Source: Prorocentrum cordatum (Eukaryota). From it: DNA of 64,000 nt. The stretch covers positions 496,001 through 560,000 of the forward strand of contig CAUYUJ010000292.1 of assembly GCA_963575745.1 (NCBI GenBank), in the 5' to 3' direction. A program made the translations under genes and the position numbers. Under the pieces are notes generated by a model, which ran no database searches, was not told where the DNA came from, and saw nothing but the letters and a program-made list of their open reading frames with translations. Each line of letters begins with the position of its first letter. The first letter of the stretch is position 1. This document shows, piece after piece, positions 14,921-56,959 of this stretch.

Positions 14921-15403
14921 TCCTGATCCCATAACAAAGTGGGAGGGGCCATATTTTTTGGGGGTCTGATTTGAGCTGCGCTGCGTTGGAGGTTTCGGGG
15001 GTGGGTGGGTGGGGGGTGGGGGCAAAAGGCCGCTGTTGCATAGCTGGTCTGGGGAGGGGGGTCGACATGGCTCGTCTGGAAGGCTCGTGACCTCTACCAC
15101 TTCCATGTGAATTCCATACCTTTTCCTCCTCCGAGCTCCTTCTTAACAGGGGATCTTTGACCCCCACCTATCTCAAGCTTCGGGAAGCTTTCGAGTGGAC
15201 CTACATTTTTTTGGCCCCTTGGGGTGTATCCCAGGGTTCCCTCCCCCCCTACTCTCAGCAGACAAACGTCTCGGGCGGAACTCGGGACTCAAGGGAAACA
15301 AACATCGCCCGCGACTTCTCTCGCCTCCCCATGTGTGTGGAAGATGTTGATCGAACAAGAAACAACCCGGGAATTATCATCTCCCCTCCTTTCCTACTTC
15401 TCC

Positions 15404-16232: not shown

Positions 16233-16264
<32 letters not shown>

Positions 16265-17087
16265 GTATATACACATGTGTGTGTGGTGTGTATGTGTGTG
16301 GTGTGTGTTTGTTGTTTCCTGTTAAACAACCGCCCTGGACATCTCACCTCCCCTTCTCCTTCCCCCCCCCTCCTCCTCCTCCTCCTCCTCCTCCTCCTCC
16401 TCCTCCTCCTCCTCCTCCTCCTCCTCCTCCTCCTCCTCCTCCTCCTCCTCCGCCTTCCTCCTCCGCCGCCTCCTCCTCCTCCTCCTCCTCCTCCCTTCCT
16501 CCTCCTCCTCCATCCTCCTCCACCTTACTCTTCCTCCTCCTCCTCTCCTCCTCTCCTCCTCCTCCTCCTCCTCCCTCCCTCCTCCTCCCCCTCCTCCTCC
16601 TCCTCCTCCTCCTCCTCCTCCTCCTCCTCCTGCTCCTGCTCCTCCTCCTCCTCCTCCTCCTCCTCCTCCTCCTCCTCCCATCCTCATTCGCCTTCCCCCC
16701 TGCTTCCTCCTCCTCCTCCTCCTCCTCCTCCTCCCGCCTCCTCCTCCTCCTGCTCCTCATCCTTCGCCTCCGCCTTCTCCTCCTCCTCCTCCTCCTCCTC
16801 CTCCTCCTCCTCCTCCTCCTCCTCCTCCTCCTCCCCTCCTCCCCTCCTCCTCCTCCTCCTCCTCCTCCATTTCCTCCTCCATTTCCTCCTCCATTTCCTC
16901 CTCCATTTCCTCCTCCATGTCCTCCTCCTCCTCCTCCTCCTCTTCCTCCTCCTCCTGCTCCCTCCTCTCTCCTTTTCCTCCTCCACCTCCTCCTCCTCCT
17001 CCTCCTCCTCCGCCGCCTTCCTCATCCTCCTCCCTCCTCCTCCTCCTCATCCTGCTCCTCCTCCTCCTTCTCCTTCCTCCTCCTCCT
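15404..17087. repeat. Large (CCT)n/(GGA)n low-complexity block with an embedded family-H MITE (15828-16208) and (CA)/(TA)/(GT) repeats
   Basis: Directly visible; explains the 694-aa and 450-aa pseudo-ORFs. Confidence 0.9.
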
Positions 17088-17163
17088 CACTCACTCACTC
17101 ACTCACTCACTCACTCACTCACTCACTCACTCACTCACTCACTCACTCACTCACTCACTCACC
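17087..17163. repeat. (TCAC)n / (GTGA)n microsatellite
   Basis: About 19 perfect units. Confidence 0.95.
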
Positions 17164-32725: not shown

Positions 32726-34425
32726 GCCACTAGCTTCTCGGGATCTAGGAGGACATCACTGAGAGCTCCTGGGAGGTGTCATGAGTAGGTTTGATCCCAG
32801 GATCCTAAGAACCGAATCGACCCTGCAATAAGAGATGCTGTCACTCGGATAACCCGTGACGCACTGCATGGTGGTCCCAGCATCCCTTCTCAAGCGAGCG
32901 GAGCGCGCCCCGAGCGTTGAAGCTATTTAGCTTGTCGTATCGCCTCTTCGCATCAGAGCGACGATCGCACGGCCGTAGCTGGCTGCATTCGGAGCCAGCT
33001 TCGCCTCTTACACTTCGCTCCGCAGCACCAGAGCCCGCTGCCAGTGCTCGCCCTTTTGGCACGCGCGGATCCCAACATTGTAGCTGACCAAGGCTGACCC
33101 GTGGCCTACCAACCACGAATGTGTTCGATACGGCGCGTGGGGCCAAGGCAGATATGCTGCTCAAAGACTTCTGTGATGACGTTGGGCCCGATCTTCGCAT
33201 CTGCTGTTGCTGCCTGCAGCTGCAGGGTGCTGCTGCCTGCGGCATGTTGCTGATGCTTACTGTTGCTGTGCGCTGCCGTTGCTTGCTGCGGACTGATGCT
33301 ATTGCTGTTGCTGAATGAGGTAACCTGCAGCTCGTGAGTGGACCAGGGAGCAAGGAGCGAGGAGTCAGGGCGAGGGGGGGAGGGAGCGAGAAGCGATCAG
33401 CGAGGAGCAAGGAGCGAGAACTGAGCAGCAACGGTCAAGGAGAGAGAGTGAGAGAGAGAGAGAGAGAGAGAAAGAAGCAAGGAGGAATGGGAGAGAGAGA
33501 GAGAGAGAGAGAGCCGAAGGAGGGGGGAGGCAGACGCCAATAGACAAGATGGAGAAGATCGGGGCCAGGAGAGAGGTGTGAGGAGCGAGGAGGAGTAAGA
33601 AGAGAGAATCCAGGAGCGAGGAGAGAGAGAGAGAGAGAGAGGCGGAGAGCGACGAGAGAGTCAGGAGCGTGGAGCAGGGGGCGAGAAGGGAGGCACGAGA
33701 AGAGGCCAGCGCACGACTGTCTCAGCAGCCTCGGCGCGCGTGTGGCCGAACATCGTGTCTCCTCTGGGGCCGCCCGTGGGGCTCTCCTGGGCTCTCGAGA
33801 AGGATCATTCCCTCGGAAGCCTCCTGGAGGCTGTTTTGGGGGTGTGTCTTGGGGCCTCTCAGGGGGCCTGTGCTGGCCCTCTTCGGGGCCTCCCGGGGCT
33901 CCTAGGGGGGCCTCTTGGGGGCATGCTGGCGGTCTCGGGTGTCATATTGGACGGAGGGTGCGAGATGCCAGCTCCAAGTCCCCCCTTGGAACCGTCATAG
34001 GCCGTCTTGGGGGCCTCTTGGGCCGTCTTGGGGCCCTCTTGGGCTGCCTGGGGGCCTTCTGGGGGGCCTGTTGCGCCGCGGGGCGATATTGGGGGCCTCT
34101 TGGGCTGTCTTGGAGCATCGGAAGCTCGAAAAGGTGAGAAAATAGCATTGTTTGAAAAACGTATGGGGGATCACTGATGATGACTTCTCCGCGTCCTCTT
34201 GGAGCTCTCTTGGGCCGTCTTGGGGCCCTGTTGGGCCGTCCTGCGGCACCTTTCGGGTCATCTGGAACCGTTTTGAAACAATCTTGGGCCATCCTGGGGC
34301 CATCTGGGGCTCTCTGGAGCCTTTCCGGACGCGTCCTGAAACCCTCCGATTGCGGCACGAGGCTCCCAAATCCAGTGGGCCCCAGGCCCTTTTCGCAGGC
34401 ACTGGTTCCGGCATTGCAGAAGAGA

Positions 34426-34530
34426 TGACGTCGAGCTCAAGCTTCGCCTCCCACATCTCGCTGAGCAACGCCAACGACCGCAGCCACTGCTCGTCCTTCT
34501 CGCACATGTTGATTCCAGACGTGTAGCTGA
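34426..34530 (-). pseudogene. PPR motif block (1 motif, 105 nt)
   Basis: SYTSGINMCEKDEQWLRSLALLSEMWEAKLELDV; exactly 35 codons between element ends. Confidence 0.85.
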
Positions 34531-34782
34531 CCCGGGCTGACCCGTGGACCCCGTCCACAAAATCTGCTCGAACTGGCACGGATTGTGGACATGCTGCCGA
34601 CAGGCTAAAATTACCGCGTGGGGCTCGACCCTCGCACTCAGCGCATGCTACTGCGTGCTGCTGGCTGCTGGTTGCTGGCGTTGTTGCCTGCTGGTGGTAG
34701 TGCTTGCCGCTGCTGCGTGTTGTTGTTGCTTGTGGCTGCAGGGTGCGTATGCTTGGTGCGCGCTGCTGACCGCTGTCTGCTG

Positions 34783-34831
<49 letters not shown>

Positions 34832-36061
34832 GCTGTTGCTGCGTGCTGCCGCTGCTGCCTGCCTGCTTTGTGCTTCGTGCTGCTGCCATTCGGGACATGG
34901 GAGCTTGGGGCCGCCCGACCATGATTTTGAGCCTCCTTGAGGCCGTAATACGGCCAAGGCTGGAAATTAAGAAGCAACAGTGGGCCTTAGTTTCCAACGA
35001 TGTTCCATGGTGGCTGTGGCCGCCCGAGGAGGTCGGAGGATGCGCGCGGGCTGCGTGGGCTCGGGAGAAGACTGAAAGCACTCCAGAGCACTCTCAGAGA
35101 GAACTCCCCGACGAGTCGCCCATTCAGACCGCAGCCTTAGCAAAGAAGAAGAGAAACTGAGAGGCGCATGGGTGCATGATTCTTCGGCGTGGCCGGCGCG
35201 GTCTCAGAGCTCTCTCAGGGGCCTTCCCCTGGAAGCCTCCTGGAGACGAACTTGGGGCTGCCTGAGGGCCTCTCGGGAGCCTCTGGGGACCTGATTTGAG
35301 TTGTGGATGCCACGACAATGGACACCCTAATAGTCCTATCATCGAACTTCTAACATTTGTTTAAACTGTCGGAGGAATGTCCTGAAAATGCTTGAAACAT
35401 GTTTGTTACACGTTTGAGATATGTTTGACACATGCTTTAGACATCTGGAAAGTAAGTATTTGGCAACGTGCTTCCTCTCCATTGATCGTCCTCCACAAGA
35501 GTTGAGCCTCTTGGGGCTCCTGGCAGGCCTCATCTTGGAGGCCTGCCGTCTGCCGTCGGCTTCTGGAGCGGAGGGCGCGACATGTCAGCTCGAGTTTCCC
35601 CATCGCGGGGCCTTTCTTGGGGCCGTCTTGGAGGCCTCTTGGGTGGTCTTGGGGCCCTCGCAGGTCGTCTGGGAGCTCCACTGGGGACCTCTCCTGCCGT
35701 CTTGGAGCCAACTTGGGGGCATCTGGGGCCGTCTTGGAGCATCGAGACTCCGAAGAGGTGAGAAAACTTAAGCCCGTCGAAAAGAACACAAGAGACGCAC
35801 ATGATTGTGACCCACGAGGTCCTTGAGGGGGGCTTATTGGAGCCCTCTTGGGCCGACTTGCGGCCCTGTGGGGTTGTCTATTATTGGCCGCCTCTTTCCG
35901 TCCCCGGCGCCTCGGACCATCTTGGACCGTCTTGGGGTCCTCTTGTGCCGCCTTGGCTGGCCCCTGCGCGCTCCAGGCTCCCCTCCGGGGGGGGCCGCTT
36001 GCCAGCCTGTTGAATAATTGTTCCTCCTGTCGCGCGGATCCCCCTTGCGTTGTAGGGTCGA
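34531..36061 (-). mobile_element. Helitron-like non-autonomous element between PPR motifs
   Basis: 5' TCGACCCTACAACGC at 36061. 3' hairpin gtggac-ccc-gtccac (34544-34558) then GGTCAGCCCGGG on the minus strand (variant terminus). Confidence 0.65.
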
Positions 36062-36169
36062 TGACGTCGTGCTCCAGCTTCGCCTCCCACATCTCGCTGA
36101 GCAGCACCACGCCCCGCTACCACTGCTCACCACCCGTCTCGCACGCGTTGATCCCAGCGTTGTAGCTGA
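36062..36169 (-). pseudogene. PPR motif block (1 motif, internal stop)
   Basis: SYNAGINACETGGEQW*RGVVLLSEMWEAKLEHDV; 108 nt. Confidence 0.85.
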
Positions 36170-36413
36170 CTGGCTCAGAGCTTCCCTGGGGCCATCAGGG
36201 TGGCCTCTGGAGCGGCTCGGAGCCGTCTTAGGTTCGTGGGGGCGCCCTCTTGATCGGTTCGGCGCCGTCTGTGGGCCGTCGGGGCGGCCTCTGGAGCGTC
36301 TCGGAGCCGTCGTGGGGCCGTCGGGGCGCCCTCTTTAGCGGCTCGGAGCCGCCTTCTACCACTCTTTCCAGAAACCCTTCTCGCACGCACAGTCCCTGGC
36401 ATTGTGGGAAAGA

Positions 36414-37329
36414 CTAGGGCTGACCCGTGGACTCCGTCCACGACACCTGGCCGAGCGTATTCTCAGGGGAGCGGCGGGAATGCGGCCGAAAAGCTATCCA
36501 CATGGCGGTCAGCCCCTCGGCTTCCAGTGGGCCTCTGAAGGCCCTCTTGGGCTCTCGTCGGTGCCGCTTGGGCCGTCTCGGAACCGTCTTGGGCCGTCTT
36601 GGGCGCCTCTTGGGCCGTCTGGGGGCCGTCATGGGCGGCTCTTAAGGCTGTCTTGGGTGCCTTCTGGGCCATCTTGGGGCCGTCGTGGGCCGTCTTGGGC
36701 GCCTATTGGGCCGTCTTCGGGCCGTATTGGGCCGTCTTTGGGGCTGTCTTGGGCGCCTCTTGGGCAGTCTTGGGCGCCTGTTGGGCCGTCCTGGGCCCGT
36801 CTTGGTGCCCTGGGGCATCTTGGGTCGATCTTGGGGGTCTCTGTGGCCGTCGTGGACGCGTCGGAAACGAGAAGCACGAGAATGCCAAAAATGAGAGCTT
36901 CCCGACGGGAATGGGACGACTTTTGCGTCTCGGGGCCGTCCTGGGGAATCCTCGAGGGCCGTCCTCGGAGGCTCCTGACCAGCAATGGGGGCCCTCGGGG
37001 CCGTCGCAGCGGCCTCTCGAGCGGCTGGGAGCGCCCCTGTGGCCGTCGGGGGCGCCCTCTTGAGCGGCTCGGAGCCATCTTGGGGTCGTCGGGGCGGCCT
37101 CTGGAGCGGCTCGGGGCCGACGTGGGGCCGCCGGGGCGCCCGCTTCGGCGGCTCGGAGCCGCCGGACCCCCCTCCCTCGCGCGGAGCGCGCCAGGGGCGG
37201 CGCCGGAGGCGACGCCGGGGGGCCCAGCGCGGATCCAAGAAGTCCGCGCGGAGCGCCACAAGCTTATGTTTATGCCGCGTTTTCGTCTTCGATTCTCGCA
37301 CGCACTGTTCCCGGTATAGTTGGAGGAGA
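36414..37329 (-). mobile_element. Helitron-like element, joined head-to-tail to a short copy (36170-36413)
   Basis: 3' CTAG at 36414-36417 with hairpin cgtggac-tcc-gtccacg (36426-36442). 5' TCTCCTCCAAC...GTGCGTGCGAGAA at 37329. Body rich in CGGCCCAAGA repeats. Confidence 0.7.
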
Positions 37330-37400
37330 AACAACGCCAGCCTCCAATTCCGCCTCCCGCACATCGCCGATCAGCACCAAAAAGCTCGCTGCCACTGCCC
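37330..37400 (-). pseudogene. Degenerate partial PPR motif
   Basis: GQWQRA/(frameshift)/LVLIGDVREAELEAGVV. Confidence 0.6.
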
Positions 37401-39241
37401 GCCTTGCTGCTGGTTCTGTTTGTGTGGCTGTTAACCTGCGGTCCGACGTATTGCTGGCATGCCTGCCTGCTTGTATGCCGGCCTGCTGGATTGATTTCTT
37501 AGGTGCTAGCTTCTTGCGATTCGCTTGCTCCCACTTGCTGCGGGTTGTTATTGCTCAGTGTTGATTGCTGCTGCTTGCTACTGTTAGCTGTTTCTCGTTT
37601 CTGCTGTTGCCAACTGTTGACTGGTGCTGGCACCTGCTTGCCGTAGTTTGGTGCTGCTGATTGCTGTTGCTTGGTGCTGGCTGTTGCTGCTTGATGCGTG
37701 CTTGCTTGGCGCAGGTGATATGAACGCGTGTTGGTGCTGCTGCGTTTCTACTGCTCGGCGAGGCTAACTTCTGCTAAGGCTTGCGTCTGCTAAGGCTTGC
37801 GTCTGCTCGGCGAGGCTGCTTATGATGCAGTCTGCTGCTGCCTGTTAGTGCTGACTTCTGCTAAGGCTTGCGTCTGCTAACTGCTCATGGCGCCGCTGCT
37901 GGCTCTGCTGGTGCTGGATCTGGGGGTTGTGTCGGGGCTCGCTGGGCCCGTCTCACGGCTCTCCGTGGGGCCTCCTGCGTCATCGTGGTGCCCTCTGGAG
38001 GCCCCCTCGGGCTCCGTGGAGGGCCTTCTGGGCGCATCCTGGGGCTCTCTTGGGGCCGCCTCGGGAGCTGTATGGAGCGCTCGGGTGCCGTCCTGGGACT
38101 GTCCGGGGGCTATGCCCTCTTGGAAACGCGTCGGGGCACTCCGAGGCCGTGTCGGGCACTGCCGGACTTGGGTGGAGGCGAGCCAGGAGGCATCTGGGCG
38201 TCGAGGACGGCGTCGCCCCCCGAGCGGAGCCGCCGAGGCAACGCAGCCCAGGGCTGGCCTAGGGAAACAAGCTGCCCTTCTCGCACGCCCGTGCCATACC
38301 AACACGGAGCCTGATGAGTGTACCATCCACGGGCCTTCCTCAAACTCATCTTGGAGTCCTCCAGGCCAGCCTTAGGTCGGGCATGTTCTCCTACAGGCGG
38401 GCTTTGGACGTGTCAACAAAAATACCCCCCAAATAATCAAACATGGTCAAAGCGTCGTCCCCAGATAATCTCTTAAACTATTTTGGAAGACTCCTCCTTT
38501 GGAGGGACGTGCCCTGCTTGCTGTTACCATCCTCGGGCCCTCCTCGAACGCATCCTGGAGTCCTCCGGGCCCGCCTCGCGGGGGCCGCTTTGGGAGCCTC
38601 CGGGAGCCTCCTCTCGGCCTCACCTGGGAGCCTCCCTGGGCCCGGGCCGGCCGGGTGGCCTCCATCGTGCCGCCCTGGGCTCTCGGGGCCGCGCCTGGGT
38701 GCCTCTTGGGTCGTCCGTGGCGCCTCCTGGGCTGCCTGGGGCCGCCTGGGTGCCGGCCGAGGGGGCACGTCGTAGCGTGTTGGGGCGATCTTGGGGGCCC
38801 GTGTGGTGGTGCTGGGCGCTTCGAGGACGAGGAGCACGAGAATAACGGCGCTGTGCGTCGAGCAAGAGACGAAACGCACGAGCACGAAGAGCGAGGAGAG
38901 CACGAGCGAGTGACGGAGAGCACGAGCACGAAGGAACTTGAGAACGATCTGCGTTTCTTGGGGCTGTCTGGGGACTCCGCTCGGAGCCCTCTTGAAACGT
39001 CTCGGGGGCCTCGGGGATGCCGTCTCGGACGTCTTCGGGCACTCTCGGACCGTCTCGGAGTCCACTCGGCCCATCTCGGAGGACTCTTTGGACCCCCCTT
39101 GGCCGTCACAGGCGCAGCGGCACGGGCGTGTGGGGAGCACCTGGGAGCTCTGCAGGCGCCTCTGGGGGCCTTCCAGACGCTGGATGAGCTATCTGGACAG
39201 CGCTCCTCCCGCACGAGCGGGGCCCAGCCATGTAGGAGAAA

Positions 39242-39499
39242 TGACGTTGGGCTCCAGCTTCGCCTCCCCAGTGATGCGCGATCTGCTGAGCAAGATCATC
39301 TCGCTGCTGAGCGAGATGATCTCGCTGAGCAGCGCCAGTGTCCGCTGCCACTGCTTGCCCTTCTCGCACGCGCTGATCCCAGCGTTATAGCTAATGACGT
39401 TGGGTTTCAGCTTCGCCTCCTGCATCTCGCTCAGCAGCGCCAGCGCCCGCTGCCACTGCTCGCTCTTTTCGCACGCGCTGATCCCAGCACTGTAGCTGA
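39242..39499 (-). pseudogene. PPR motif block (2 motifs plus an internal 48-nt expansion)
   Basis: SYSAGISACEKSEQWQRALALLSEMQEAKLKPNVISYNAGISACEKGKQWQRTLALLSEIISLSSEMILLS...EAKLEPNV. Confidence 0.88.
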
Positions 39500-40631
39500 C
39501 TAGGGCTGACCCACGGACGACGCCCACGAAATCTGCACGAACTGGCACGCTATTGTGCACATGCCGCCGGAAGGATGAGATGAATAACGTTGGGCTCGAC
39601 ACTAGCAGTCCGCACGTTTCCCTGCGTGTTGCTGCGTGCTGCCGCTGTTTCGGTCATGTTGGTGATGCTTGCCGCTGCTACATTTGTTGCTGCTTGTGGC
39701 TCCAGAGTATTGATGATGGCCAGTTGTGCTTGGTGCGTGCCGCTGCCCGCTGCCTGCTGGTGCTTGCGGTTGCTGTATGCTGCCGCCGCTGCTGCCTGCT
39801 TCGTGCTGCTGCCGTTCGCTGCTGCTGACTGGTGCTGCAGGATGCTGCCGCTCGCTGCCTGCTTCGTGCTGCCTGCCTACGGTTGGTGCCCGCCGGAACA
39901 AATACTTGTCTGCTCCGTCGGCGGCGAGGCAGAGGCAGCCCGCTCCAGCGTGTGGCCACTCGAGGCAACCCAAAGGCGACTCGTCCGCCGTGCATGAGGG
40001 GGAGAGAAAGCGAGGGCGGCCGCGCGGGGGGAGTCGCAAGGAGGAGAGCGCTCACACGTGGAAGACTTCCGCGTCGGGCGGGCCAGGGCAGCCAACCGAG
40101 GCAGCGGTAACCTTCTTAGGTCGGGCCTGTCCCCCTACAAGGGGATTTTGGATGAAAAAAGAATAGTCGAACAATACCCCCCGAATCATCAAGAATAGTC
40201 TAAACGTCCCCAGACTATTTTTTGCCATTTTGGAATATTCCTTCTGTGGAGGGACAGGCCCGACTTACCGGTAACCGTGGCCGGAAAATACACACGTCCG
40301 AGCGATGCCGAGGCTCTGTGATCGCACCCGCGGCACCAATCGGGGGCGGCCAAGATGGGGGTGTCCAAGAGGGGGGGGGGGGCGCAAATCATGGCCGGCG
40401 ACATGTGCGCGGCCCTAGAGGGGGGGAGGCCCGGGGACGTAACGAGATAAGAGGCGCCATGACATCTGGGGAACTATCACGGTCCACGCAATGATATCCA
40501 CAACACCTATAGTAACCACTCTCTTCTCGGGCGCCCCCCGGACCAAGAGAGCGCGCACGCCGCCGCGAGGAGCGCCCGAGGCCCCTCGGGCGACAAAACA
40601 GGGACGGCGAGAGGGGGGGGAGGGGGGGGAG

Positions 40632-40731
40632 NNNNNNNNNNNNNNNNNNNNNNNNNNNNNNNNNNNNNNNNNNNNNNNNNNNNNNNNNNNNNNNNNNNNN
40701 NNNNNNNNNNNNNNNNNNNNNNNNNNNNNNN
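40632..40731. other. Assembly gap (100 N)
   Basis: Run of n; true length unknown. Confidence 0.99.
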
Positions 40732-43301: not shown

Positions 43302-43625
43302 TGAGGCGGGGCTCCAGCTTCGATCTCCGCATCTCGTTGAGCAGCGCCAAACCCAACTATCACTGCTCGCACATCTCGGATACGTTAAACCCGGCGCTAT
43401 AACAAATGACGATGGGCTTCAGTTTCAGCTCCAACATCCCGCCGAGAAGGGCAAAGGACCACTATTAATACTCGCACTTCTCGCTCCTCTCGCACGCGCT
43501 GATCCCGGCACTGTAGCTGATCACGTCGGGAACTAGCTTGGTCTTCCACATCTCGCTGAGAAGCGCCCAAGCTCGCTGCCACTGCAAACCCTTCTCGCAC
43601 GCGCTGATGCCGACGTTGTAGCTGA
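43302..43625 (-). pseudogene. PPR motif block (~3 motifs, last two frameshifted/degenerate)
   Basis: SYNVGISACEKGLQWQRAWALLSEMWKTKLVPDVISYSAGISACERSEKCEY*, later LALLNEMRRSKLEPRL. Confidence 0.85.
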
Positions 43626-45350
43626 CCAGGGCGAACCCGTGGACTACGTCCACGAAGGCTATTCGAAACAGCTCGCGGGGTCCAGGCGGGGATCTCGACG
43701 AAATGCTTTCATGATGACGGTCGGCGGCGTGCCTTTCGGAACCTGGCACCCTTGGGGGGCACAGACGTTTCCCTAAGCCCTCTGGGGTGTGCATAACCGC
43801 AATAAGCCATCGAGGACCCCCCACGGGTTATCATTCGCACAGCACCGTAATCAAATAATTATGGGGGGCGGTTTTCGTCGAACGATATGATTAGCACCGC
43901 GCAAACGAAAATAAACAATTCCCGCGCCCCGGCTCGGGTGACATCCCAATTGAAATTGGAATGATATTGAAAATAATGATGACAATGGTGAAACACGAGT
44001 AGTCATAATAATAATGATAACATGGGTAATGATATCAAATAGATAAGAGTAAGAGTAAGGCCATATTTCGTGAATGTCTCAGGCGGTTTGCTTGTTTCGG
44101 CGAGCAGACTCGTCTGCGTTCACATAAAAGTGCGAGGTGCCCTGGTAACGCTTCTGGGGTGCCAGGTGCGTGATACTTTCGCCGGAGAGGGGGGGTGTCA
44201 TAATTGCTTCTGGCGTTTATGGGGGCTTCTCGGGTTTGAAACCTCTGGGGCCCTCTTCTCCAAGTCACCCTTCGCTAGTTATTGGGAGCCCTGGTGTGCA
44301 GAACTTTGAACGTCATCCGAATCCTCTTGGGGCCCTCTGCGGAGGGCCCAGCATGCCCCTCGGGGAATTCTGAAGGCTCGCTTGGATTACTTGCGGCTCT
44401 CTCGGGCCACCTTGGGTGCCTCCTGGACCGTCTGCGGATGACGTCGGGCGTCTTGGGCCGTCTTGGAGCTCTCTGTGAGCCCCCTGGGCCCCTTCTGCGG
44501 TCCTGGGGCGTTCTGGGCGGTCCCCTGCGTCGTCCTGGCCCGTTCTGGGTCCCGGCATGGCGACAACCAGAGAATCCTGCCGGAGATGAGAAAAGCTGTG
44601 CGTTCGCGGCCTCGGGCTGTCGTGGAGGAGCCTCCGCTGTTGTCTCTTTAGGGAGCCTCCCGTGGTTCGTGGTTCGGGAAACACAGCAGCGCGCGTCTGG
44701 GAGCCGTCGGGGGGACGTCTTGGGACGTCTTGGGGCCATCACAGGAAGGAAGAAAACCGACACCAACACCACCAGGGACAATTTCCTGGGCGATGCAAGA
44801 CCGAAGACTGGGAAAGACGGACAGACCCGAAGGCGGCGCAGCCGGTGAGCATAGGCAGGGGACGGATCGGGGGAGGGGAGGCGACGCAAACAGAGCGGTT
44901 GCTCACAGAACGGAGGGGGGACGCATGCGGGACAAGCAACGCTACCCCAAACCGTCGGGGCTACAGAACACCCCACCCCTCGGGATCCCATCGGCGACTC
45001 CCCTGCCCTACCCATCGTGGGAGCCGAGCCCGATTGCGAGGATGTCCTGAGCGAAGGGGGGGACCAGCACCACCAGGGACCCTCCCGCCGGGCAGAGCGA
45101 TCGGGTCCCCGAGACCCTAGGTGCCGCGACCCTCCCGATTCGTATGCGGGCCATTTGGGCGCGCGACTGCGTGGTCGTTTATTGTTCCTGCTCCTGTGGG
45201 CTCTCTGAAAGCGCTCCTATCAGTGCGCAGGAGAGGCCGGGGGTCGCGCGAGGGCCCGCCAGGGAGGGCTGCGAGGGCCCGCGGGGGGGATTTTGGATAC
45301 TTGATCGCCCACCCTTCAGGCACGCACCGCTTCGGGCCACATAGGGTACA
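43626..45350 (-). mobile_element. Helitron-like element between PPR blocks
   Basis: 3' CTGG with hairpin cgtggac-tac-gtccacg (43638-43654). 5' TGTACCCTATGTGGCC...GTGCGTGCCTGAAGGG at 45350. Confidence 0.65.
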
Positions 45351-45770
45351 TGATGGTGGGCTCCAGCTCCACCTCCCCCATCTCGCTCAGCAACACTAGA
45401 GCCCGCTGCCACTGCTCGCCCTTCTCGCACGCGCTGATCCCAGCGCAGTAGCTGATCACGTCGGGCTCCAACTGCGCCTCCCTCATGTCGCTTAGAAGCG
45501 CCAAAGCCCGCAGCCACTGCACGCCCTTCTCGCACGCGCTGATCCCAGCGTTGTAGCTGTTCACGTTCGGTTTCAGCTTCGCCTCCCACATCTCGCTTAG
45601 CAGCGCCAGACCCCGCTGCCACTGCTCGCCCTTCTCGCACGCGCTGATCCCAGCGCAGTAGCTGATCACGTCGGGCTCCAGCTGCGCCTCCCGCATCTCG
45701 CTGAGAAGCGCCACAGCCCGCTGCCACTGCTCGCCCTTCTCGCACGCGCTGACCCCTGCGCTGTAGCTGA
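45351..45770 (-). CDS. Four intact tandem PPR motifs (exon or gene fragment of a PPR protein)
   Basis: 420 nt = 4 x 105, open frame; four copies of SYxAGxSACEKGxQWxRxxxLLSxMxExxLxPxx, matching the 35-aa P-type PPR pattern. Confidence 0.85.
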
Positions 45771-47879: not shown

Positions 47880-48115
47880 GCACCCGCGACCCACCCCACG
47901 ACCAACCCCGCGACCCACCCCACGACCCACCCCGCGACCCACCCGTGACCCAACCCGCGACCCACCCGCGACCAACCCCGCGACCACCCCGCGACCCACC
48001 CGCGACCAACCCCGCGACCCACCCCGCGACCCACCCGCGACCCACCCCGCGACCCATCCGCGACCCATCCGCGACCCACCCCCGACCCACCCCGCGACCC
48101 ACCCCGCGGCCCACC
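47880..48115. repeat. ~12-nt minisatellite (CCCGCGACCCAC)
   Basis: About 19 units, with a remnant at ~48280-48345. Confidence 0.9.
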
Positions 48116-50894: not shown

Positions 50895-50999
50895 TAACGT
50901 CGGGCTGCAGATTCGCTCCCCGCATCTCGCTGAGAAGCACCAGAGCCCGCTGCCACTGCTCGCCCTTCTCGCACGCGCTGACCGCAGCGTTGTAGCTGA
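50895..50999 (-). pseudogene. PPR motif block (1 motif, 105 nt)
   Basis: SYNAAVSACEKGEQWQRALVLLSEMRGANLQPDV. Confidence 0.85.
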
Positions 51000-51812
51000 C
51001 TAGGGCAGACCTGTGGACTCCGTCCACGACATCAGCTCGACGTGGCGAGGGGTCTCTGGGCAAGCGCGGCGTGCCTGTCGCCTCTCGTCCGCTCCCCCGC
51101 TCCTGGAGGGAATTCTGAAGCCACTGAAGGCTTCGTGGGGGCCGTTTCGGAGCCTCTTCGGCCTTCTTTTGGGCCTCCCGGGGGGGCTCTTAGGGCCCTC
51201 TCGGGCCGCCTTGGGTGCCTCTTGGGCCTTCTTGGGGCCGTCTGAGGCCCGCTTCGGCGCCTCTTGGGCTGTCTTGGGCCGTCTTGGGCCGCTCCTGGGG
51301 CCGTCTTGGGTGCCTCTTGGGCCGTCTTGGGCGCCTCCTGGGCCGTCCTGGGGCCGTCCTGCGGCGTCTTGGGACCGTCTGGGGGCCCTCCTGGCCCGTC
51401 TTGGGGCTCTCTTGGGTCCTCTTCGGCCGTCTTGGAGCGGTCGGGGGGACTTCTTGGGCCGTCTTGGAGCGTCGGGAAGCCGAAGAGGCGAGGAGGCCGA
51501 AAACATCGAAAAACACAATAGAAATCGATGATTTCTGTCGCTCGGGGCCCTCTTGGGAGGCCTCTTGGGAGGCCTCTTCGGGCGTCTTGGACGCCTCTTG
51601 GGCCGTCTGGGGCGAATCTCGGGCGTCGTGGGCCCATCTTTAAGCGTGCCGGGGCTCTCCGGGGCCGTCTTGGGGGCTTCTGGGGGCCCTCTCGACATGT
51701 CCTGGAGCCTGCCTGGGCGGCCCGGGGCGGCCCGGGGCCAGCCCGGGGCGGTTTGGGTGCATTGGGGCCTGCGCCCTTCTGGCACGCACTGGGCCCTGCA
51801 ATGTAGTAGAGA
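51000..51812 (-). mobile_element. Complete 813-nt Helitron-like non-autonomous element
   Basis: 5' TCTCTACTACATTGCAGGG at 51812. 3' hairpin gtggac-tcc-gtccac (51013-51027) then CTAG (51000-51003) followed by the target T. Near-duplicate of ~54065-54809. Confidence 0.8.
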
Positions 51813-54809
51813 CTAGGGCTGACCCGTGGACTCCGTCCACGACATCTTTATGGAATGGTTCTCGGAGGAACGGCGCAGATTGTACCGAAAATCTACAAAC
51901 ACGGCGGCGGCTCGGGCGGCGGCAGCGAGACCGCGCCTTCGTGTCCGAGCTCTTGCAGCGCTCCAGCAGCTTGGCCCAGCGCACTGCTCGTTCACCCCCC
52001 TCCTATTGAGGGCAGTTTCGAAGTCTCTCGGGGATGTGCGTCGAAGTCGAGGCCCATCTGAGGCGTCTCAGGAGCGCCCAGGGAAGGGCTCGGGAGGCCA
52101 TCGGGGAAAGCCACCGAAAGCGCCGGGGAGGCTCGCAAGGATCTACAGGGAGGGCCCAAGAGAGCTTCAAGAAAATATGAAATCCAGTGAACTCTTAAGA
52201 GAAACCGCTGTTGGGTCGGCCATCACCTCCGGGCGCGCCTTGATGGTGCGATCCAGTCGCATCACCGCCAACGGGAGGGTTTGTTCGCCATGTCCCATTC
52301 TGTTCGCCCAGAGGGTCTGTGGAGGCCTTCGGGCGAACAGAACGGGACAGGGCAAGGAATGGGGAAGCCATGTCCGAATCTCCTGGGCCCCCCAGATGCT
52401 CGTCCGAAGAATGCGGAGAGGTCCCAGGGTCATATCAATTGGCTGCTGTCCCAGGGGTCCGGTCTGCTTGGCCCGAAGAGTTTGCCAAGGCCCCTGGGGG
52501 AACAGAATGGCACAGCGTATCGGGCAAAGGGGGGCGGTAGCTGGCCTGTCAGACCCGGCGTTCGTCTTCTGCCCAAGCGGCGCAGGGCCCACGGGCCCCA
52601 GGGTTGGCGTCCCGCTGGGATTCCTCTTGTTCGCCCACAGGGTTGGAGGAGGCCTCCAGGCGAACAGAATGGGGCAGGACAATGAAGGTGGGAGACTCGT
52701 CGCAAGCTCCCAGCCCCCCCAAGTGTGCGCCCGAAGGGTGTGGGGCCGCGTTGGCTCCCTCAAAGGGCCGTCTTGGAGCCGTCTAGGCCCGTCTTGAGGG
52801 CGCCGTTTGCCCTGATGGGGCCGTCTTGGTTCGTCGTGGGCCCCTCATGGGCGCGTCCGTAGGCCGTCCTGGGCCATCGGGGTCCTCGTGGGGCTGTCTT
52901 GGAGCCGTCTGGGACCGTGAGGAGGCCGCCTTGGAGTCGTCTTGGGCCCCTCCTGTGCGCCTCCTTGGGCCGTCCTGGGCCAGCAGGGGCCGTGTTGGCA
53001 CCCTGTTGGGGCTGTCTCGGAGCCGTCCTGAGCCGTCGCAGCGCGCCTTGGGTTGTGTTGGGTCCGTCTTGGCCCGTCTTGGGGCCTTCCTGGGCGGTTC
53101 CTCGGACCCTCCTGGGACTTTCTGGGGCCTCTTGGTGCATCGGACCGCCGAAACGGCGGGAAACGCAAAGGGTGTAACAGTAAACAATGGACAATTAACG
53201 ATTTTTGCCAGCTGGGACTCTCTTGCCATCTTGCCCCGAACGGGCGCGTCCTTGGGCCGTCCTGGGCGCACCCTCCTGGGACCGTCTTGGAATCGTCTTG
53301 GGCCGTCTTGAGCGCGCCTTGGGCCGTCCTGGGCCGGTCTGGGGCCGTGTTGGCACCCTCGCGGCGAGGAAGCTCGGAGGCGGGCTCGAGGCCTCTTCGG
53401 AGCCATTTTGGAAGCTGTTGGGGCCTCTGTAGGGGCCTCGTTTGGGCTCCTTGGGAGCCTCCTGGGGCCTCTTCGGGGGATTCTTGGCGGCCCCTTGGGG
53501 CCTCTTGGGGGCCTGTTTGGGCCTCCTGGCGCCCTCTTGGGGCGGAAGGCTCGGATTTTCTGTGGGGCCCCCTCTTGGGCTGTCTTCGGGCGTCGTCTCT
53601 TGGAAACCTCTTGGGCCGTTCTGGGGCGCTCTTGGAGGCCTCTTGGGCCGTCTTCGAGCGTCGGAAAGCGGAAAAGGCGAGAAGGCCAAAATCCTTCCAA
53701 AACCGTCGTAAAGCGGACGATTTTGAGGCCCAAAACCGTCCAAAACCTCCTGAGGCGGTCCCCTCGTCCGCCCCCCTCGCTTCGAAGCAGTTTTTAAGCC
53801 CCGTGGCACCTCTTGGGGATCTCTTTTGGGCTCCTGGGGGCCTCTTGGGCCTCCACTGGATTCGCTGCCCTCGGTCGGCAATCGTCGATCCTACGACGAC
53901 TCTCCCCAACGGAGAAACATCGAAGGCCCTCGGAGCGTTGTTCTTTTGTGCCTTCGATATGCCAGTCGCCTCTCGTCCGCTCCCCCCCTCCTGGAAGCAA
54001 TTCTGAAGCCACTCAGGGCTTCGTGGGGGCCGTTTGGGGATCTCTTGGGGCGTTTTTGCCTGCGATATGCCTGTCGCCTCTCGTCCGCTTCCCCGCTCCT
54101 GGAGGGAATGCTGAAGGCACTGAAGGCTTCGTGGGGGCCGTTTCGGAGCCTCTTCGGCCTTCGTTTGGGCCTCCCGGGGGGGCTCTTAGGGCCCTCTCGG
54201 GCCGTCTTGGGTGCCTCTTGGGCCGTCTTGGGGCCGTCTGAGACCCGCCTCGGCGCCTCTTGGGCTGTCGTGGGCCGTCTTGGGCCGCTCCTGGGGTCGT
54301 CTTGGGTGCCTCTTGGGCCGTCTTGGGCGCCTCCTGGGCCGTCCTGGGGCCGTCCTGGGGCGTCTTGGGACCGTCTGGGGGCCCTCCTGGCCCGTCTTGG
54401 GGCTCTCTTGGGGTCCTCTTCGGCCGTCTTGGAGCGGTCGGGGGGGCTTCTTGGGCCGTCTTGGAGCGTCGGGAAGCCGACGAGGCGAGGAGGCCGAAAA
54501 CATCGAAAAACACAATAGAAATCGACGATTTCTGTCGCTCGGGGCCCTCTTGGGAGGCCTCTTGGGAGGCCTCTTCGGGCGTCTTGGACGCCTCTTGGGC
54601 CGCCTGGGGCGAATCTCGGGCATCTTGGGCCCATCTTTAAGCGTGCCGGGGCTCTCCGGGGCCGTCTTGGGGGCTTCTGGGGGCCCTCTCGACATGTCCT
54701 GGGGCCTGCCTGAGCGGCCCGGGGCGGCCCGGGGCCAGCCCGGGGCGGTTTTGAGACATTTGAGCCTGCACCCTTCCCGCACGCACGTGCCCCTGCAATG
54801 TAGTAGAGA
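51813..54809 (-). mobile_element. Composite ~3-kb Helitron-like element
   Basis: 3' CTAG at 51813-51816 with hairpin 51825-51841. 5' TCTCTACTACATTGCAGGG at 54809. First ~750 nt nearly identical to the 813-nt element. Confidence 0.72.
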
Positions 54810-56115
54810 CTAGGGCTGACCCGCGGCCTTCCGGCCGCGGAGTCTGCCCGCCATGGTGTGGACGTGGAAAGGGAGTGTCTCCGGGGCCTCGCGGGGGGGG
54901 AGGTTGAAGGGGACGGTGTGGATGGGGGAAGTGGCCGCTGAAGGGGGAGGTGGGCGAGGGATGCAGGCAAGCAGGCCTGAAGGCAGGAACGCATGTAGGC
55001 ACAACGTGGTGTGGACAGAAGCTGTTTCTCACGCCGCGCTTTGTGTTCATCATAGCCTTTGCGGGGCGGGGCGCCGTTATCATTTTATCTGCTCTTAGCT
55101 GGGGCCGCGTGATATACGACCCAAGAGGCCCACAAGAGGGCGCCGAGACGGCCCGCACAGGGGCCGCTCAGGCGCCCGGTGCACGGGAGAATCACCGATT
55201 GGACGCTGGAGAAACTGTCAATTAACTGTCGATTTGGTTTACTTGGGCTGCGCGATAGGAGCCTTCTCGGGTTGTCTGGACACTCTTGGGGCCTTCTTCG
55301 GGGCATGCTCAGGGCATCCCTGTGGCTCCTCCCTCCTCGTCCTCCCCTGGATCGGTCATCCAGTCGATCTTCTTTAGGAGCCATCTCGGTGTGTCTGGAC
55401 CGTCTTGGGGCCTCCTTCGGATCATGCTCGGGACATCTCAGTGGCTCCTCCTCCTCCTCCCCTCGATCCTTCATCCCGTCGATCTTCTCGTCAGTCGTCG
55501 ACGCTCCCCAAGAGACAAGCATTCAATGCCTCATGGGTCCGTTTGGAAGCCTCTTTTCGTCCTCCTGGGGGTCTCTCGGGCCCTTTTGGGCCGTCTTGGG
55601 TACATCTTGGGCCGCCTTGGAGCGATTTGGGGCCGTCTTGGGCGCCTCTGGGGCTATCTTGTGGCCGTCTTGGTTGCCTCTGCGGCCGTCTAGGGCGTCT
55701 CTGGAGCCGTGGCGGGGCCGCCTCGGGCCGTTTGGGGGCCCTCCTGGAGTGCTCTGGGGGCGTCTTGTGGCGATCGGGACGGCCTGTGTAGCCGTCTTGG
55801 ACGCGCTGAAGACGAAAAGAGCAAACATATAAAAAATGCACGTTTTCCGTAGGGAATGGGGCAAATGTTTGCCTCTTGGGTCCCTCCTGGGGGTCCTCCT
55901 GGGCCGCCTTGGGAGCCTCCTGGCCTGCCTTGGGGGCCGAAGGGGCCGACCTGGGGCTCGGTTGGGTCCCTCTTGGTCTGTCCGGGCGCCCTTGTGGGCG
56001 TCTCTGAGCCGTCTCGGAGCGGCCCGGGGGCTCGCAGGGCGGCCTGGAGAGCCCAGCGGACCTTTCAAGACAGAGGACCTTCTTGCACGCAAAGATCGCT
56101 ACATTGTAGAAGAGA
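54810..56115 (-). mobile_element. Helitron-like element with an alternative hairpin
   Basis: 3' CTAG at 54810-54813, spacer GGTCAGCC, hairpin ccgcggcc-ttcc-ggccgcgg (54821-54840). 5' TCTCTTCTACAATG at 56115. Confidence 0.75.
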
Positions 56116-56220
56116 TGACGTCGGGCTCCAGCTTCCCCTCCCACATCTCGCTGAGCAGCGCCAGCGCCAGCTGCCACTGCTCGACTTTTTCGCACGCGCT
56201 GATCCCAGCATTGTAGCTGA
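56116..56220 (-). pseudogene. PPR motif block (1 motif, 105 nt)
   Basis: SYNAGISACEKVEQWQLALALLSEMWEGKLEPDV. Confidence 0.85.
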
Positions 56221-56959
56221 CCAGTGTCTGACCAGGGTTCTGCGGTAACTCCTGGGAGCCTACTATACCATCTTGCTATCTTGCTCGCTCTTGCGAACCG
56301 ACGCTGTTTGACGCCAAGTCGAATCAACCCGAATCGACGCTGGTTCGGCGCTTCCGGATCGGTGCCCAAGCGCTGGCGCACGCCGATTCCGTCTGACAAG
56401 GGAACTCCGAGGACCTGCAAGGCTCCCGTGCCTTCCTGCCGAGCCGATATGTGCACACCTGGAGCACATGCGCTCAGGCGAGTCTGCAGGGGAGCCGTGC
56501 GGCCCTGCCTCGCCGGTGACAGCCCCTTAGGAGCCGTCACGGGCGCCTCCTCCTCCTCCTCCTCCTCCTCCTCTTCCTCCTCCTCCTCGTCCTCCTCCTC
56601 CTCCTCCTCCTCCTCCTGGGCAGGGGTGGGGCCTCCTTGGCGTCGTCCTGTGGGCCTCTGCGGCCACCGCGGCCCATCTTTTCGAGGCCGCCGAGGCCGT
56701 CTTGGGCCGTCGGAGGCGCGAGAAGCCGAGAAAGCTGAAACGTCAGCCAGCGTTGGCCCAAAAGAGTGAGTTCTTGCAGTCTATGCGTCGCAATCTGAGC
56801 GGTGCAGTCCGTGCGGTGCATTATGCTGCTCCCGTCGTACTGGAGAGCCAAATCCCCCCATACATAGTCTCGGGCCCACGGAAAAAAATGTCGAAACGGG
56901 GTCGAACGAGCATCGCCTCCCGGAACCCGACACGTGAAAACCTCCCAGTCCCGGTACTC

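What the first reader, a model, noticed from the sequence alone, without database searches (positions are those of the whole stretch)
34388..56256. Site-specific Helitron-like elements that split PPR-motif coding sequence at one fixed nucleotide
Seen: the minus-strand PPR blocks start at TC AGC TAC and end at ...GAC/AAC GTC A or an equivalent codon, i.e. they are cut at A^T inside the Ile codon of D-V-I-S-Y. Block lengths are 105 (34426-34530, 50895-50999, 56116-56220), 108 (36062-36169) and 420 = 4x105 nt (45351-45770). Upstream of most blocks is hairpin + GGTCAGCC + CTAG/CTGG (variants CGGG, CGGT). Downstream of most blocks a sequence begins with TC (or TT/TG). There is no target duplication and all inserts share the PPR orientation. 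Established: 5' TC, a GC-rich hairpin ~10 nt before a 3' CTRR, insertion between A and T, and no TSD define Helitrons, which are normally not specific beyond AT. Inference: a non-autonomous rolling-circle family repeatedly and specifically targeted PPR repeats, spreading ~14 motifs over 22 kb. I know of no description of a PPR-targeting Helitron, but I could not search the literature. The alternative is that PPR motifs are captured cargo that moves with the elements.
Basis: partly seen in the sequence, partly recalled or inferred. Interest (0 to 1): 0.92.

Follow-up and report, generated by a model that had tools for sequence, protein, structure and literature searches.

The report
Hairpin module joined to PPR repeats
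A 23-kb stretch of a red-tide dinoflagellate genome is a decayed array of PPR-repeat cassettes, each headed by a small conserved hairpin module joined to the repeat at one fixed base; this looks more like a duplicated composite unit with intron-like spacers than like jumping Helitrons that aim at PPR genes.

Summary
The PPR blocks and the hairpin+GGTCAGCC+CTAG motif are real and far beyond chance (6 matches, 0 expected). The 3' junction (CTAG|TCAGCTAC) is fixed. The 5' "cut" is not a cut. After every run the sequence continues for about 38 nt as a variant PPR start (PPR', +2 nt), and homology breaks only after ...GAGAAGG. So the "TC 5' end" is the repeat's own TC.

The repeating order is PPR'(1-38), a variable spacer B, a decayed PPR'(41-105), an 81-89-nt module A that ends in the hairpin and CTAG, then n PPR motifs (n=0-4).

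The window lies in Prorocentrum cordatum. A public gene model (P0122) treats the blocks as exons with G[TC]-AG introns, and two of its acceptors are the CTAG of module A.

No RepHel or other transposon domain was found in 256 ORFs. The only recent duplicate (95%) crosses the supposed element junction.

Module A joined to PPR recurs on other scaffolds and in environmental contigs, and its hairpin covaries.

Best reading: a composite SACEK-PPR cassette multiplied by segmental duplication. A Helitron-like origin of module A is not excluded. No transcript data could be laid. Earlier notes of this scan describe a hairpin-ended transposon elsewhere in this genome.

The parts
56116..56220 (-). PPR run, 1 motif (SYNAGISACEKVEQWQLALALLSEMWEGKLEPDV). 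Upstream at 56221-56250 only a degenerate GGTCAGACACTGG remnant of module A.
   Evidence: (profile 1-105, E 3.6e-30)
56076..56115 (-). PPR' : variant partial PPR start (+2 nt), ends ...AAGAAGG, then spacer B
   Evidence: profile 5-38, E 0.047
54810..54841 (-). Module A, 3' part, second hairpin type (CGCGGCC-GGAA-GGCCGCG) + GGGTCAGCC + CTAG
   Evidence: E 3.8e-05; DNA fold -12.6 kcal/mol, z -3.4
54769..54809 (-). PPR' directly after CTAG (unit with no full motif, n=0)
51813..51901 (-). Module A (89 nt) with hairpin CGTGGAC-GGA-GTCCACG, GGGTCAGCC, CTAG
   Evidence: (E 1.9e-22)
51770..51812 (-). PPR' directly after CTAG (n=0). It is an exon of public gene model P0122 (aa 861-874).
51000..51088 (-). 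Module A (its 5' part diverged)
   Evidence: E 5.7e-14
50895..50999 (-). PPR run, 1 motif; exon of P0122 (aa 875-911, acceptor CTAG|TC)
45351..45770 (-). PPR run, 4 motifs. Upstream at 45771-45787 only the GGGTCAGCCCGGT remnant of module A. P0122 reads 45766-45524 in a non-PPR frame.
43626..43714 (-). Module A (89 nt), ends CTGG
   Evidence: (E 1.2e-21)
43305..43625 (-). PPR run, 3 motifs (2nd with TAA TAG, 3rd degenerate)
39500..39584 (-). Module A (85 nt); the hairpin is kept only through G-T wobbles
39202..39499 (-). PPR run, 2 motifs (second with a 48-nt internal insert) plus PPR' (39202-39241); partly an exon of P0122
37293..37408 (-). Decayed second half of a PPR motif (profile 31-103) abutting a PPR' with no module A between them
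   Evidence: (E 1.6e-07 and 0.057)
36373..36502 (-). Module A (36414-36502) followed directly by PPR' (36373-36413), n=0
36020..36169 (-). PPR run, 1 motif of 108 nt with an in-frame TAG, no module A upstream, then a PPR'-like piece; last exon of P0122 stops at the TAG
34531..34611 (-). Module A (about 81 nt), ends CGGG; a CAG-rich block lies upstream (34660-34890)
34383..34530 (-). PPR run, 1 motif (34426-34530) plus PPR' (34383-34425)
32927..33176 (-).

Best explanation
The region is the decayed 3' part of a SACEK-type PPR locus of Prorocentrum cordatum, built from about ten copies of one composite cassette.

Read on the minus strand, each cassette has four parts in a fixed order:
- Module A, 81-89 nt here. 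It ends with a 7-bp hairpin, GGGTCAGCC and CTAG.
- n ordinary 105-nt PPR motifs, n = 0 to 4.
- PPR', the first ~38 nt of a variant motif that carries 2 extra bases.
- A variable spacer B of 0.2-5 kb, made of 10/21-nt GGGCCGTCTT-type satellites, CAG runs and unique DNA. The spacer ends in the decayed remainder of that variant motif, which abuts the next module A.

Shown: the order of the parts, the fixed A|PPR junction, the break after ...GAGAAGG, and the structural conservation of the hairpin.

Inferred:
- Module A entered a PPR array once, or a few times, next to a PPR' motif.
- B lies inside PPR', as an intron or an insertion.
- The whole cassette was then multiplied by segmental or unequal-exchange duplication in the array, and spread to other scaffolds together with this large, highly homogeneous PPR family.
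- The spacers behave as intron-like DNA. The break after AAGG leaves G|GY and module A ends in AG, which is how the public gene model splices them.

The PPR motifs here are largely pseudogenic.
For: Order and junctions.

All 8 significant copies of module A in 64 kb abut PPR (5) or PPR' (3).

PPR' plus the piece upstream of module A make one motif. The clearest cases are at 37293-37408 and upstream of 51812, 39499 and 33087.

The only recent duplicate (95% over 772 nt, 51072-51841 vs 54068-54839) begins at GGGTCAGCCCTAG, crosses CTAG|TC and runs through PPR' and B into the next module region. It is a segmental event that ignores the supposed element ends.

Public gene model P0122 maps at 100% to six exons here. 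All 5 of its introns are G[TC]-AG, and 2 of the 5 acceptors are the CTAG of module A.

PPR motifs are 80% alike pairwise. Pooled pN/pS is 0.44, and differences by codon position are 37/33/49. Four runs carry stops or frame breaks.

No transposon protein domain was found in 106 ORFs of 186 aa or more over the whole window, nor in 150 ORFs of 90-185 aa in 32-59 kb. Only PPR matched.

The family is large and dispersed. 233 proteins reached E<=1e-10 among 8000 scored candidates, mostly P. cordatum gene models. SACEK-PPRs are described as abundant in P. cordatum in passages of the review PMC12787238.
Against: Conserved ends with unrelated interiors is also what a non-autonomous Helitron family looks like. 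Here the ends are 38 nt at one side and the hairpin module at the other; the interiors do not align.

The hairpin keeps pairing through two double changes in a second stem type (54809, and protein P0177 from another contig). 91% of cells are paired, against 0 of 500 shuffles. That points to a function at the DNA or RNA level which simple duplication does not explain.

Only 6 of 11 DNA junctions end in AG, whereas 8 of 11 fit CTRR.

G|GY after AAGG is partly just the PPR codon GGC, so it is weak evidence for a donor.

The +2 nt of PPR' breaks the frame of any simple splice product.

Trees of module A and of the adjacent PPR motif are not congruent: 39499 and 34530 are closest for A, 39499 and 56220 for PPR.

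The gene model reads one exon in a non-PPR frame, and sister models read PPR in all three frames. So the annotation is weak support.

No transcript evidence was obtained.
Confidence: 0.5

Rival explanations
1. One reading: a non-autonomous Helitron-like (rolling-circle) family. Its 5' end would be TCTCTTCTACAATG... and its 3' end the hairpin-GGGTCAGCC-CTAG. It would integrate, in one orientation and without duplication, at the A|T of the D-V-I|S-Y codons of SACEK-PPR repeats. Head-to-tail copies would give the n=0 junctions.
For: The 3' end fits the Helitron1 pattern as I recall it: a 7-bp hairpin 9 nt before CTAG, followed by T. CTRR is met in 8 of 11 DNA copies. The hairpin covaries. The ends are conserved and the interiors are unrelated. 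All copies lie in one orientation. The module-to-PPR junction is found on at least 6 other P. cordatum scaffolds and in environmental contigs: 22 of 178 fetched proteins, although that search included PPR residues in the query. In a search with module A alone, 5 of 5 true hits are followed by PPR (4) or PPR' (1). A RepHel exists in a dinoflagellate (S. microadriaticum; passage read in PMC8788227). Helitron-derived introners are reported in a fungus (passages of PMC12130899).
Against: The '5' end' is PPR sequence, and the rest of that same motif lies just before module A. So the 'element' is a PPR motif with something inside it plus an 81-89-nt add-on. TC is the PPR's own TC. Three junctions are G|T. 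At 37334/37333 the two motif halves of neighbouring units abut without module A. The one recent duplication is not bounded by TC...CTAG. No RepHel was found in the window. The dinoflagellate RepHel in print is Helitron2-like; as I recall, that group has different termini and targets.
Confidence: 0.2
2. PPR as cargo. The cassette itself (module A + n PPR + PPR', with a precise end after ...GAGAAGG and a ragged upstream end) is the mobile or copied unit. It could be a retroposed or transposon-borne PPR fragment. The spacers would then be the landing sites, or later site-specific insertions of satellite-tailed retroelements.
For: The right end is precise, within about 3 nt in 10 units. The left extent of the PPR remainder is ragged (profile positions about 37, 37, 41, 45, 80 and 95 in different units). 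The flanks are unrelated. The motifs are highly uniform and consensus-like, are read in all three frames by gene models, and carry stops, which is the behaviour of repeat DNA. In L001 a 124-nt satellite-type piece sits inside the hairpin between two copies of a 14-nt stretch. Earlier notes of this scan report LINEs aimed at a transposon hairpin in this genome (not checked by me).
Against: Ten of ten units in one orientation within 23 kb fits an array rather than independent landings. There is no poly(A) and no common tail after the precise end. No RT or endonuclease domain was found in the spacers. No spliced-leader relic was tested.
Confidence: 0.15
3. The annotation is right. This would be an expressed multi-exon PPR gene, the intervals ordinary G[TC]-AG introns, and the hairpin-GGGTCAGCC-CTAG a conserved signal at the 3' end of the intron.
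For: P0122 maps exactly with 5 G[TC]-AG introns, two of which end at the CTAG of module A. P. cordatum has long introns and uses GC/GA donors (passages of PMC10666404 and PMC11453091). Splicing GAG AAG G | TC AGC TAC keeps the PPR frame, by my arithmetic.
Against: There are stops and frame breaks in 4 runs. The +2 nt in PPR' breaks the frame. One exon is read out of the PPR frame. Only 6 of 11 junctions keep AG. pN/pS is 0.44 with a weak third-position excess. No run held more than 14% of the sampled words of 43200-52000.
Confidence: 0.1

Closest known systems
SACEK-type P-class PPR proteins of dinoflagellates (abundant in P. cordatum, Polarella glacialis, Alexandrium; review PMC12787238, passages read)
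   Same: 35-aa motifs with the S-A-C-E-K signature and a downstream Trp, in consecutive arrays. Pfam PPR_2/PPR_3 matches. Nearest proteins are P. cordatum gene models.
   Different: The copies here are broken and interrupted. Neither the hairpin module nor the frame-shifted PPR' at the end of each run appears in the passages I read.
Canonical Helitrons
   Same: The 3' end pattern, the T after the end, one orientation, conserved ends with variable interior, and head-to-tail junctions.
   Different: The 5' end is PPR sequence. No RepHel was found. The recent duplicate is not bounded by the ends. Module A alone is only 81-105 nt. The only dinoflagellate RepHel I found in print is Helitron2-like (PMC8788227).
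Introner elements / transposon-made introns of dinoflagellates (Roy et al., cited in PMC10666404 and PMC11453091; Gozashti et al. PMC12130899, which reports helitron-derived introners in the fungus Suillus)
   Same: Repeated DNA that sits in coding repeats and is delimited by splice-like ends. P. cordatum introns are reported as rich in such elements.
   Different: Those of P. cordatum are defined by inverted repeats at both ends plus 3-5-nt direct repeats. Module A has a hairpin at one end only and no terminal inverted repeat. Splicing is unproven here.
Exon-intron unit duplication in tandem-repeat protein genes, and tandemly duplicated PPR gene blocks in dinoflagellates (stated in PMC12787238)
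   Same: Repeat-phase boundaries, units of variable motif number, and one orientation.
   Different: The covarying hairpin immediately before the repeat is an extra, unexplained element.

Membership tests
Helitron (canonical, Helitron1) | 3' end CTRR preceded within about 10-12 nt by a GC-rich hairpin | tested here: met
   A 7-bp stem, 9 nt, then CTAG. CTRR is met in 8 of 11 DNA copies (10 in the window plus L001; exceptions CGGG, CGGT, TTGG; the 36169 run has no module)..
Helitron (canonical, Helitron1) | A 5' terminus TC that belongs to the element | tested here: inconclusive
   The TC (TT/TG/CC in four copies) is followed by about 36 nt homologous to the start of a PPR motif, so it can be the repeat's own TC. 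The left end of module A alone reads TC in 2 of 6 copies.
Helitron (canonical, Helitron1) | Insertion between A and T without target duplication | tested here: inconclusive
   A|T holds at PPR-flanked ends. Three junctions (36413, 51812, 54809) are G|T. A possible 3-nt TCA repeat flanks module A in 2 of 6 copies.
Helitron (canonical, Helitron1) | Autonomous copies with the same ends that encode RepHel | not testable with these tools
   None found in the window: 256 ORFs scanned, only PPR matched. No genome is held. Pattern scans of the other collections gave one contig.
Helitron (canonical, Helitron1) | Copies are bounded by the two termini (the unit that moves is TC...CTRR) | tested here: not met
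   The only young copy pair (95%) starts at GGGTCAGCCCTAG and crosses the junction. This is a single event, so it is weak.
Spliceosomal intron, dinoflagellate type (G[T/C/A]...AG) | GY/GA at the 5' end and AG at the 3' end | tested here: inconclusive
   GT or GC comes directly after ...GG in 6 of 10 units, but the PPR codon GGC supplies G and C. AG is present at 6 of 11 junctions.
Spliceosomal intron, dinoflagellate type (G[T/C/A]...AG) | Removed from transcripts at these boundaries | not testable with these tools
No run holds the locus. There is only a public gene model, in which 2 of 5 acceptors are the CTAG of module A.
SACEK-type P-class PPR repeat | 35-aa PPR motif with S-A-C-E-K at positions 9-13 and a following Trp, in tandem | tested here: met
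   family as described in PMC12787238.
Introner element as defined for P. cordatum / Amoebophrya | 8-20-nt inverted repeats at both ends plus 3-5-nt direct repeats | tested here: not met
   The consensus fold of 7 copies shows only the 3' hairpin and a GGG/CCC mini-stem, with no pairing between the two ends. The TCA direct repeat is seen in only 2 of 6 copies.

The most novel reading that the evidence does not exclude
The hairpin-GGGTCAGCC-CTAG module is the working end of a rolling-circle (HUH-nuclease, Helitron-like) element. The element integrates at a single nucleotide of the SACEK-PPR repeat, and its CTAG serves as a 3' splice site. That would make it a sequence-specific, Helitron-type introner that has colonised one gene family of a dinoflagellate. 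The variable-stem hairpin next to an invariant 13-mer would be the recognition and nick site.
Probability: 0.17. Interest if true: 0.85.

Novelty: new variant of a known kind. Interest (0 to 1): 0.42.

Why it matters
If the ordinary reading holds, the finding has three uses. It documents how a very large dinoflagellate PPR family grows, as composite cassettes with repeat-filled spacers. It warns that many P. cordatum PPR gene models are unreliable, because they read the repeat in all three frames. It also points to a small, structurally conserved hairpin tied to one nucleotide of the repeat, whose role is unknown; it could be a splice signal, a recombination site or a transposon end.

If the bold reading holds, it would be the first Helitron-like element with true sequence-specific targeting, and one that doubles as an intron end. 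I found no such report. No relevant title or abstract start appeared among the 12 papers listed (of 47 holding both terms) for Helitron + pentatricopeptide. The one paper for Prorocentrum + Helitron I saw only as title and start of abstract, and those do not concern this. The same held for the listings of dinoflagellate/Helitron/introner. Only PubMed Central CC papers and bioRxiv were searched.

Tried and rejected
- **Transcript or read evidence.** The run search on 43200-52000 listed 22 runs, none above 0.14 of the sampled words. So there is no read evidence either way.
- **More DNA copies.** The hairpin pattern gave 1 metagenome contig (L001) and none in viral contigs or prokaryote genomes. 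A conserved PPR 23-mer gave none in either. No genome is held for the window.
- **Module A as a diverged PPR motif, either strand.** Rejected. Local alignment scores are no better than shuffles: of 14 tests the best was 12 of 200 shuffles as high.
- **Module A as a known RNA.** Rejected. No Rfam family at gathering score and no tRNA in the window.
- **Module A as a fixed 105-nt unit.** It is 35 aa, the same length as a PPR motif, in P0141/P0175. Rejected, because it is 22-30 aa in other proteins and 81-89 nt here.
- **Spacers as one LINE family inserted tail-first at PPR' position 38.** Considered because of the satellite tails and the earlier notes. The first 90 nt of 11 spacers do not align, except for the recent pair, and no RT domain was found.
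- **Search with module A plus the preceding 12 residues of P0175.** Only P0175 itself and its sister model were returned.
- **Relic spliced leader inside module A.** A loose resemblance that I recalled. Not tested, because the leader sequence would have had to come from memory.
- **Earlier scan notes.** Searched by sequence twice with no look-alike.

Full report
**What the window is.** It is GC-rich (56-73%) repeat-laden DNA and no whole genome is held for it. The PPR blocks translate to the consensus SYNAGISACEKGEQWQRALALLSEMWEAKLEPDV(I). The 4x block matches Pfam PPR_2 at E=4.3e-18. A search with the ORF 45319-45972 gave 233 proteins at E<=1e-10 among 8000 scored candidates, and most of the 120 listed are gene models of Prorocentrum cordatum. 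One of them, P0122 (1082 aa, on a 662,579-nt scaffold), maps at 100% identity onto the window as six exons: 59719-59666, 51811-51770, 51000-50890, 45766-45524, 39461-39246 and 36173-36120. So the window is P. cordatum DNA, and the region is already annotated as the tail of a PPR gene. The motif type is the 'SACEK' PPR class, described as abundant in P. cordatum (passages of PMC12787238).

**Checking the observation.** That last run is followed by a C-terminal-type tail and a TAA stop. The hairpin motif has 6 matches at up to 3 mismatches against 0 in 100 shuffles. A profile of the module finds 8 significant copies in the 64 kb, all on the minus strand and none outside the array. Each abuts either TCAGCTAC (5 copies) or a PPR-like start (3 copies). 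The 3' junction is therefore real and fixed.

**The downstream 'cut' is not real.** After the last full motif of a run the sequence goes on for about 38 nt as a recognisable variant PPR start, TCTCTTCTACAATG...GCGTGCGAGAAGG. It is two bases longer than the normal start. The PPR profile detects it at seven places (positions 4-41; individually weak, E 0.0018-5.4), and I see it by eye at three more. I call this piece PPR'. Homology stops only after ...AAGG. At 36413, 51812 and 54809 the CTAG is followed directly by PPR' with no full motif.

**Anatomy.** Upstream of the hairpin module there is, in several units, a decayed second half of a PPR motif. The cases are 37334-37408 (profile 31-103, E 1.6e-07) and the units at 51812, 39499 and 33087 (positions about 37-45 to 105). 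Between this remainder and the next PPR lies module A. It is 89 nt in four copies, 85 nt in one and about 81 nt in one, and it is not PPR-like on either strand. The array therefore reads, on the minus strand:

... PPR'(1-38) | spacer B | PPR'(about 41-105, decayed) | A | n x PPR | PPR'(1-38) | B ...

with n = 1, 0, 0, 1, 4, 3, 2, 0, 1, 1, 1. One place (37334/37333) has the two motif halves of neighbouring units abutting with no A at all. Spacers are 0.2-5 kb of 10/21/42-nt GGGCCGTCTT-type satellites, CAG/CCT runs and unique DNA. Their first 90 nt do not align with one another, apart from one recent pair. They carry no recognisable protein domain: 106 ORFs of 186 aa or more across the window and 150 ORFs of 90-185 aa in 32-59 kb gave only PPR hits. 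There is no Rfam family and no tRNA in the window.

**The hairpin.** Aligning the 40 nt before the junction from 11 window sites and L001 shows a 7-bp stem (CGTGGAC/GTCCACG), a 3-4-nt loop, then GGGTCAGCC and CTAG.
- Across the 12 rows, 91% of cells pair. Three pairs show changes on both sides, and 0 of 500 shuffles reach the observed pairing or the observed number of pair types. Sliding the partner by 1-3 columns drops pairing to 29-42%.
- These numbers carry caveats. The set is small, the copies are related, and the structure was derived from these same sequences.
- The copy at 54809 has a different stem (CGCGGCC-GGAA-GGCCGCG), with two compensatory pair changes, before the same 13-mer. An environmental protein, P0177 (an ENA contig), encodes that same second type.
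- In 22 proteins that carry the junction the peptide reads V-D-x-V-H-G-S-A-L-V-S-Y in most. The loop codon varies (G/E/V/A/K) and the stem codons are mostly fixed.
- As single-stranded DNA the stems fold at -7 to -12.6 kcal/mol (z -2 to -3.4). The wobble-rich copy at 39500 does not fold.
- The consensus fold of 7 whole modules shows nothing beyond this hairpin and a GGG/CCC mini-stem.

**Elsewhere.**
- The exact hairpin pattern hit one marine metagenome contig (L001). There it is again followed by TC + three PPR motifs and a tail motif, and it is preceded by a CAG-rich block and the same satellites.
- Of 178 proteins fetched, 22 carry the A|PPR junction. They come from at least 6 other P. cordatum scaffolds and from ENA contigs, but that query contained PPR residues.
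- A profile of module A alone, run against 1.84 billion representatives, gave 8 hits at E<=0.001. Three are unrelated repeats. The 5 true hits are followed by PPR (4) or PPR' (1), and none by anything else.
- The frame-shifted PPR' ending (I-S-S/P-T/A-M/T...) occurs at 12 sites in the 178 proteins.
- The composite is thus a dispersed feature of this PPR family and not a peculiarity of this locus.

**Transposition or duplication?** The Helitron reading has real points in its favour:
- a textbook-like 3' end;
- a structurally constrained hairpin;
- conserved ends with unrelated interiors;
- a single orientation;
- a constant junction.

Against it:
- The putative 5' end and the stretch before module A are the two parts of one PPR motif. 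The 'element' is therefore better described as a PPR motif with something inside it, plus module A.
- The three head-to-tail junctions are G|T, not A|T.
- No RepHel was found here.
- The one dinoflagellate RepHel I found in print is Helitron2-like (passage of PMC8788227).
- The only young duplication in the array (95% over 772 nt) begins at the 13-mer GGGTCAGCCCTAG. It crosses CTAG|TC, runs through PPR' and the whole spacer, and ends inside the next module region, with unrelated DNA upstream of the hairpin. That is a segmental event whose ends ignore TC...CTAG.

**How the annotators read the boundaries.** All five introns of P0122 in the window are G[TC]-AG, and two acceptors are exactly the CTAG of module A. 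Splicing GAG AAG G | TC AGC TAC would keep the PPR frame. But PPR' has two extra bases. P0122 reads exon 45766-45524 out of the PPR frame, and sister models read PPR in all three frames. The models are therefore weak evidence.

**State of the motifs.** They are 80% alike pairwise. Pooled pN/pS is 0.44 and the third-position excess is only mild (37/33/49). Four runs carry stops or frame breaks. The locus is largely pseudogenic.

**Verdict.** It mis-set the other boundary, and with it the identity of the 'elements'.
- Most likely (about 0.5): a composite SACEK-PPR cassette, consisting of hairpin module A, n motifs, a frame-shifted partial motif and an intron-like repeat-filled spacer, multiplied by segmental duplication and unequal exchange.
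- A Helitron-like family aimed at PPR repeats remains possible (about 0.2).
- So does a mobile cassette that carries PPR as cargo (about 0.15).
- So does a truly expressed gene with these introns (about 0.1).

**What remains unexplained.** Module A itself: a short insert at one nucleotide of the repeat, whose hairpin is kept by compensatory change next to an invariant 13-mer.

**Evidence that could not be obtained.** A genome-wide census was also out of reach. I did not open the supplements of the P. cordatum genome paper (repeat classes, introner tables); they may bear on whether Helitrons are annotated in this genome.

**Literature.** I read passages, not whole texts, of PMC12787238, PMC12130899, PMC10666404, PMC8788227 and PMC11453091. 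I found no report of a PPR-targeting Helitron in the listings.

Noticed in passing
L001:652-803: In the metagenome contig the 14-nt stretch GTGGACGGAGTCCA (left arm, loop and most of the right arm of the hairpin) occurs twice, 138 nt apart, with 124 nt of the GGCCCAAGACGG-type satellite DNA between the two copies. It looks like an insertion into the hairpin with a 14-nt target duplication. It recalls the earlier notes of this scan on LINEs that land in a transposon hairpin.
   Followed up: partly
window:51072-51841 and 54068-54839: A 772-nt pair at 95% identity, about 3.0 kb apart, is the only recent duplication in the array. A 108-nt tandem (1.8 copies) lies at 53945-54143, next to the point where the pair's homology ends (54068).
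   Followed up: yes
window:39242-39394: The second PPR motif of this run carries a 48-nt internal insert that partly repeats its own ...CTCAGCGAGAT... segment, in part inverted. The profile also gives a weak plus-strand match at 39302-39319.
   Followed up: no
proteins P0002, P0033, P0063, P0121, P0122 (P. cordatum gene models): Public gene models translate this PPR repeat in all three frames (for example ...LQRWDQRVREGRAVAAG... and ...ATTLESALARSAGSGSGLWRC...). All three frames of the GC-rich repeat are open, so many PPR models of this genome are probably artefactual.
   Followed up: partly
window:22900-26500 and 15300-17100: Large tandem-repeat blocks with strong strand skew (GC up to 0.73, GC skew -0.62). 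The two regions are related to each other at about 83% identity. They are not part of the PPR array.
   Followed up: no
window:40632-40731: A run of 100 N (assembly gap) lies inside one spacer, so the length and content of that spacer are unknown.
   Followed up: no
window:43860-44045: A short AT-rich island of unique sequence sits in otherwise GC-rich DNA, just upstream of the module at 43626-43714.
   Followed up: no
protein P0122, residues about 190-842: The middle of the gene model does not map to the window apart from chance 6-mers, and it is not PPR-like. The model probably fuses unrelated upstream sequence to the PPR tail.
   Followed up: no
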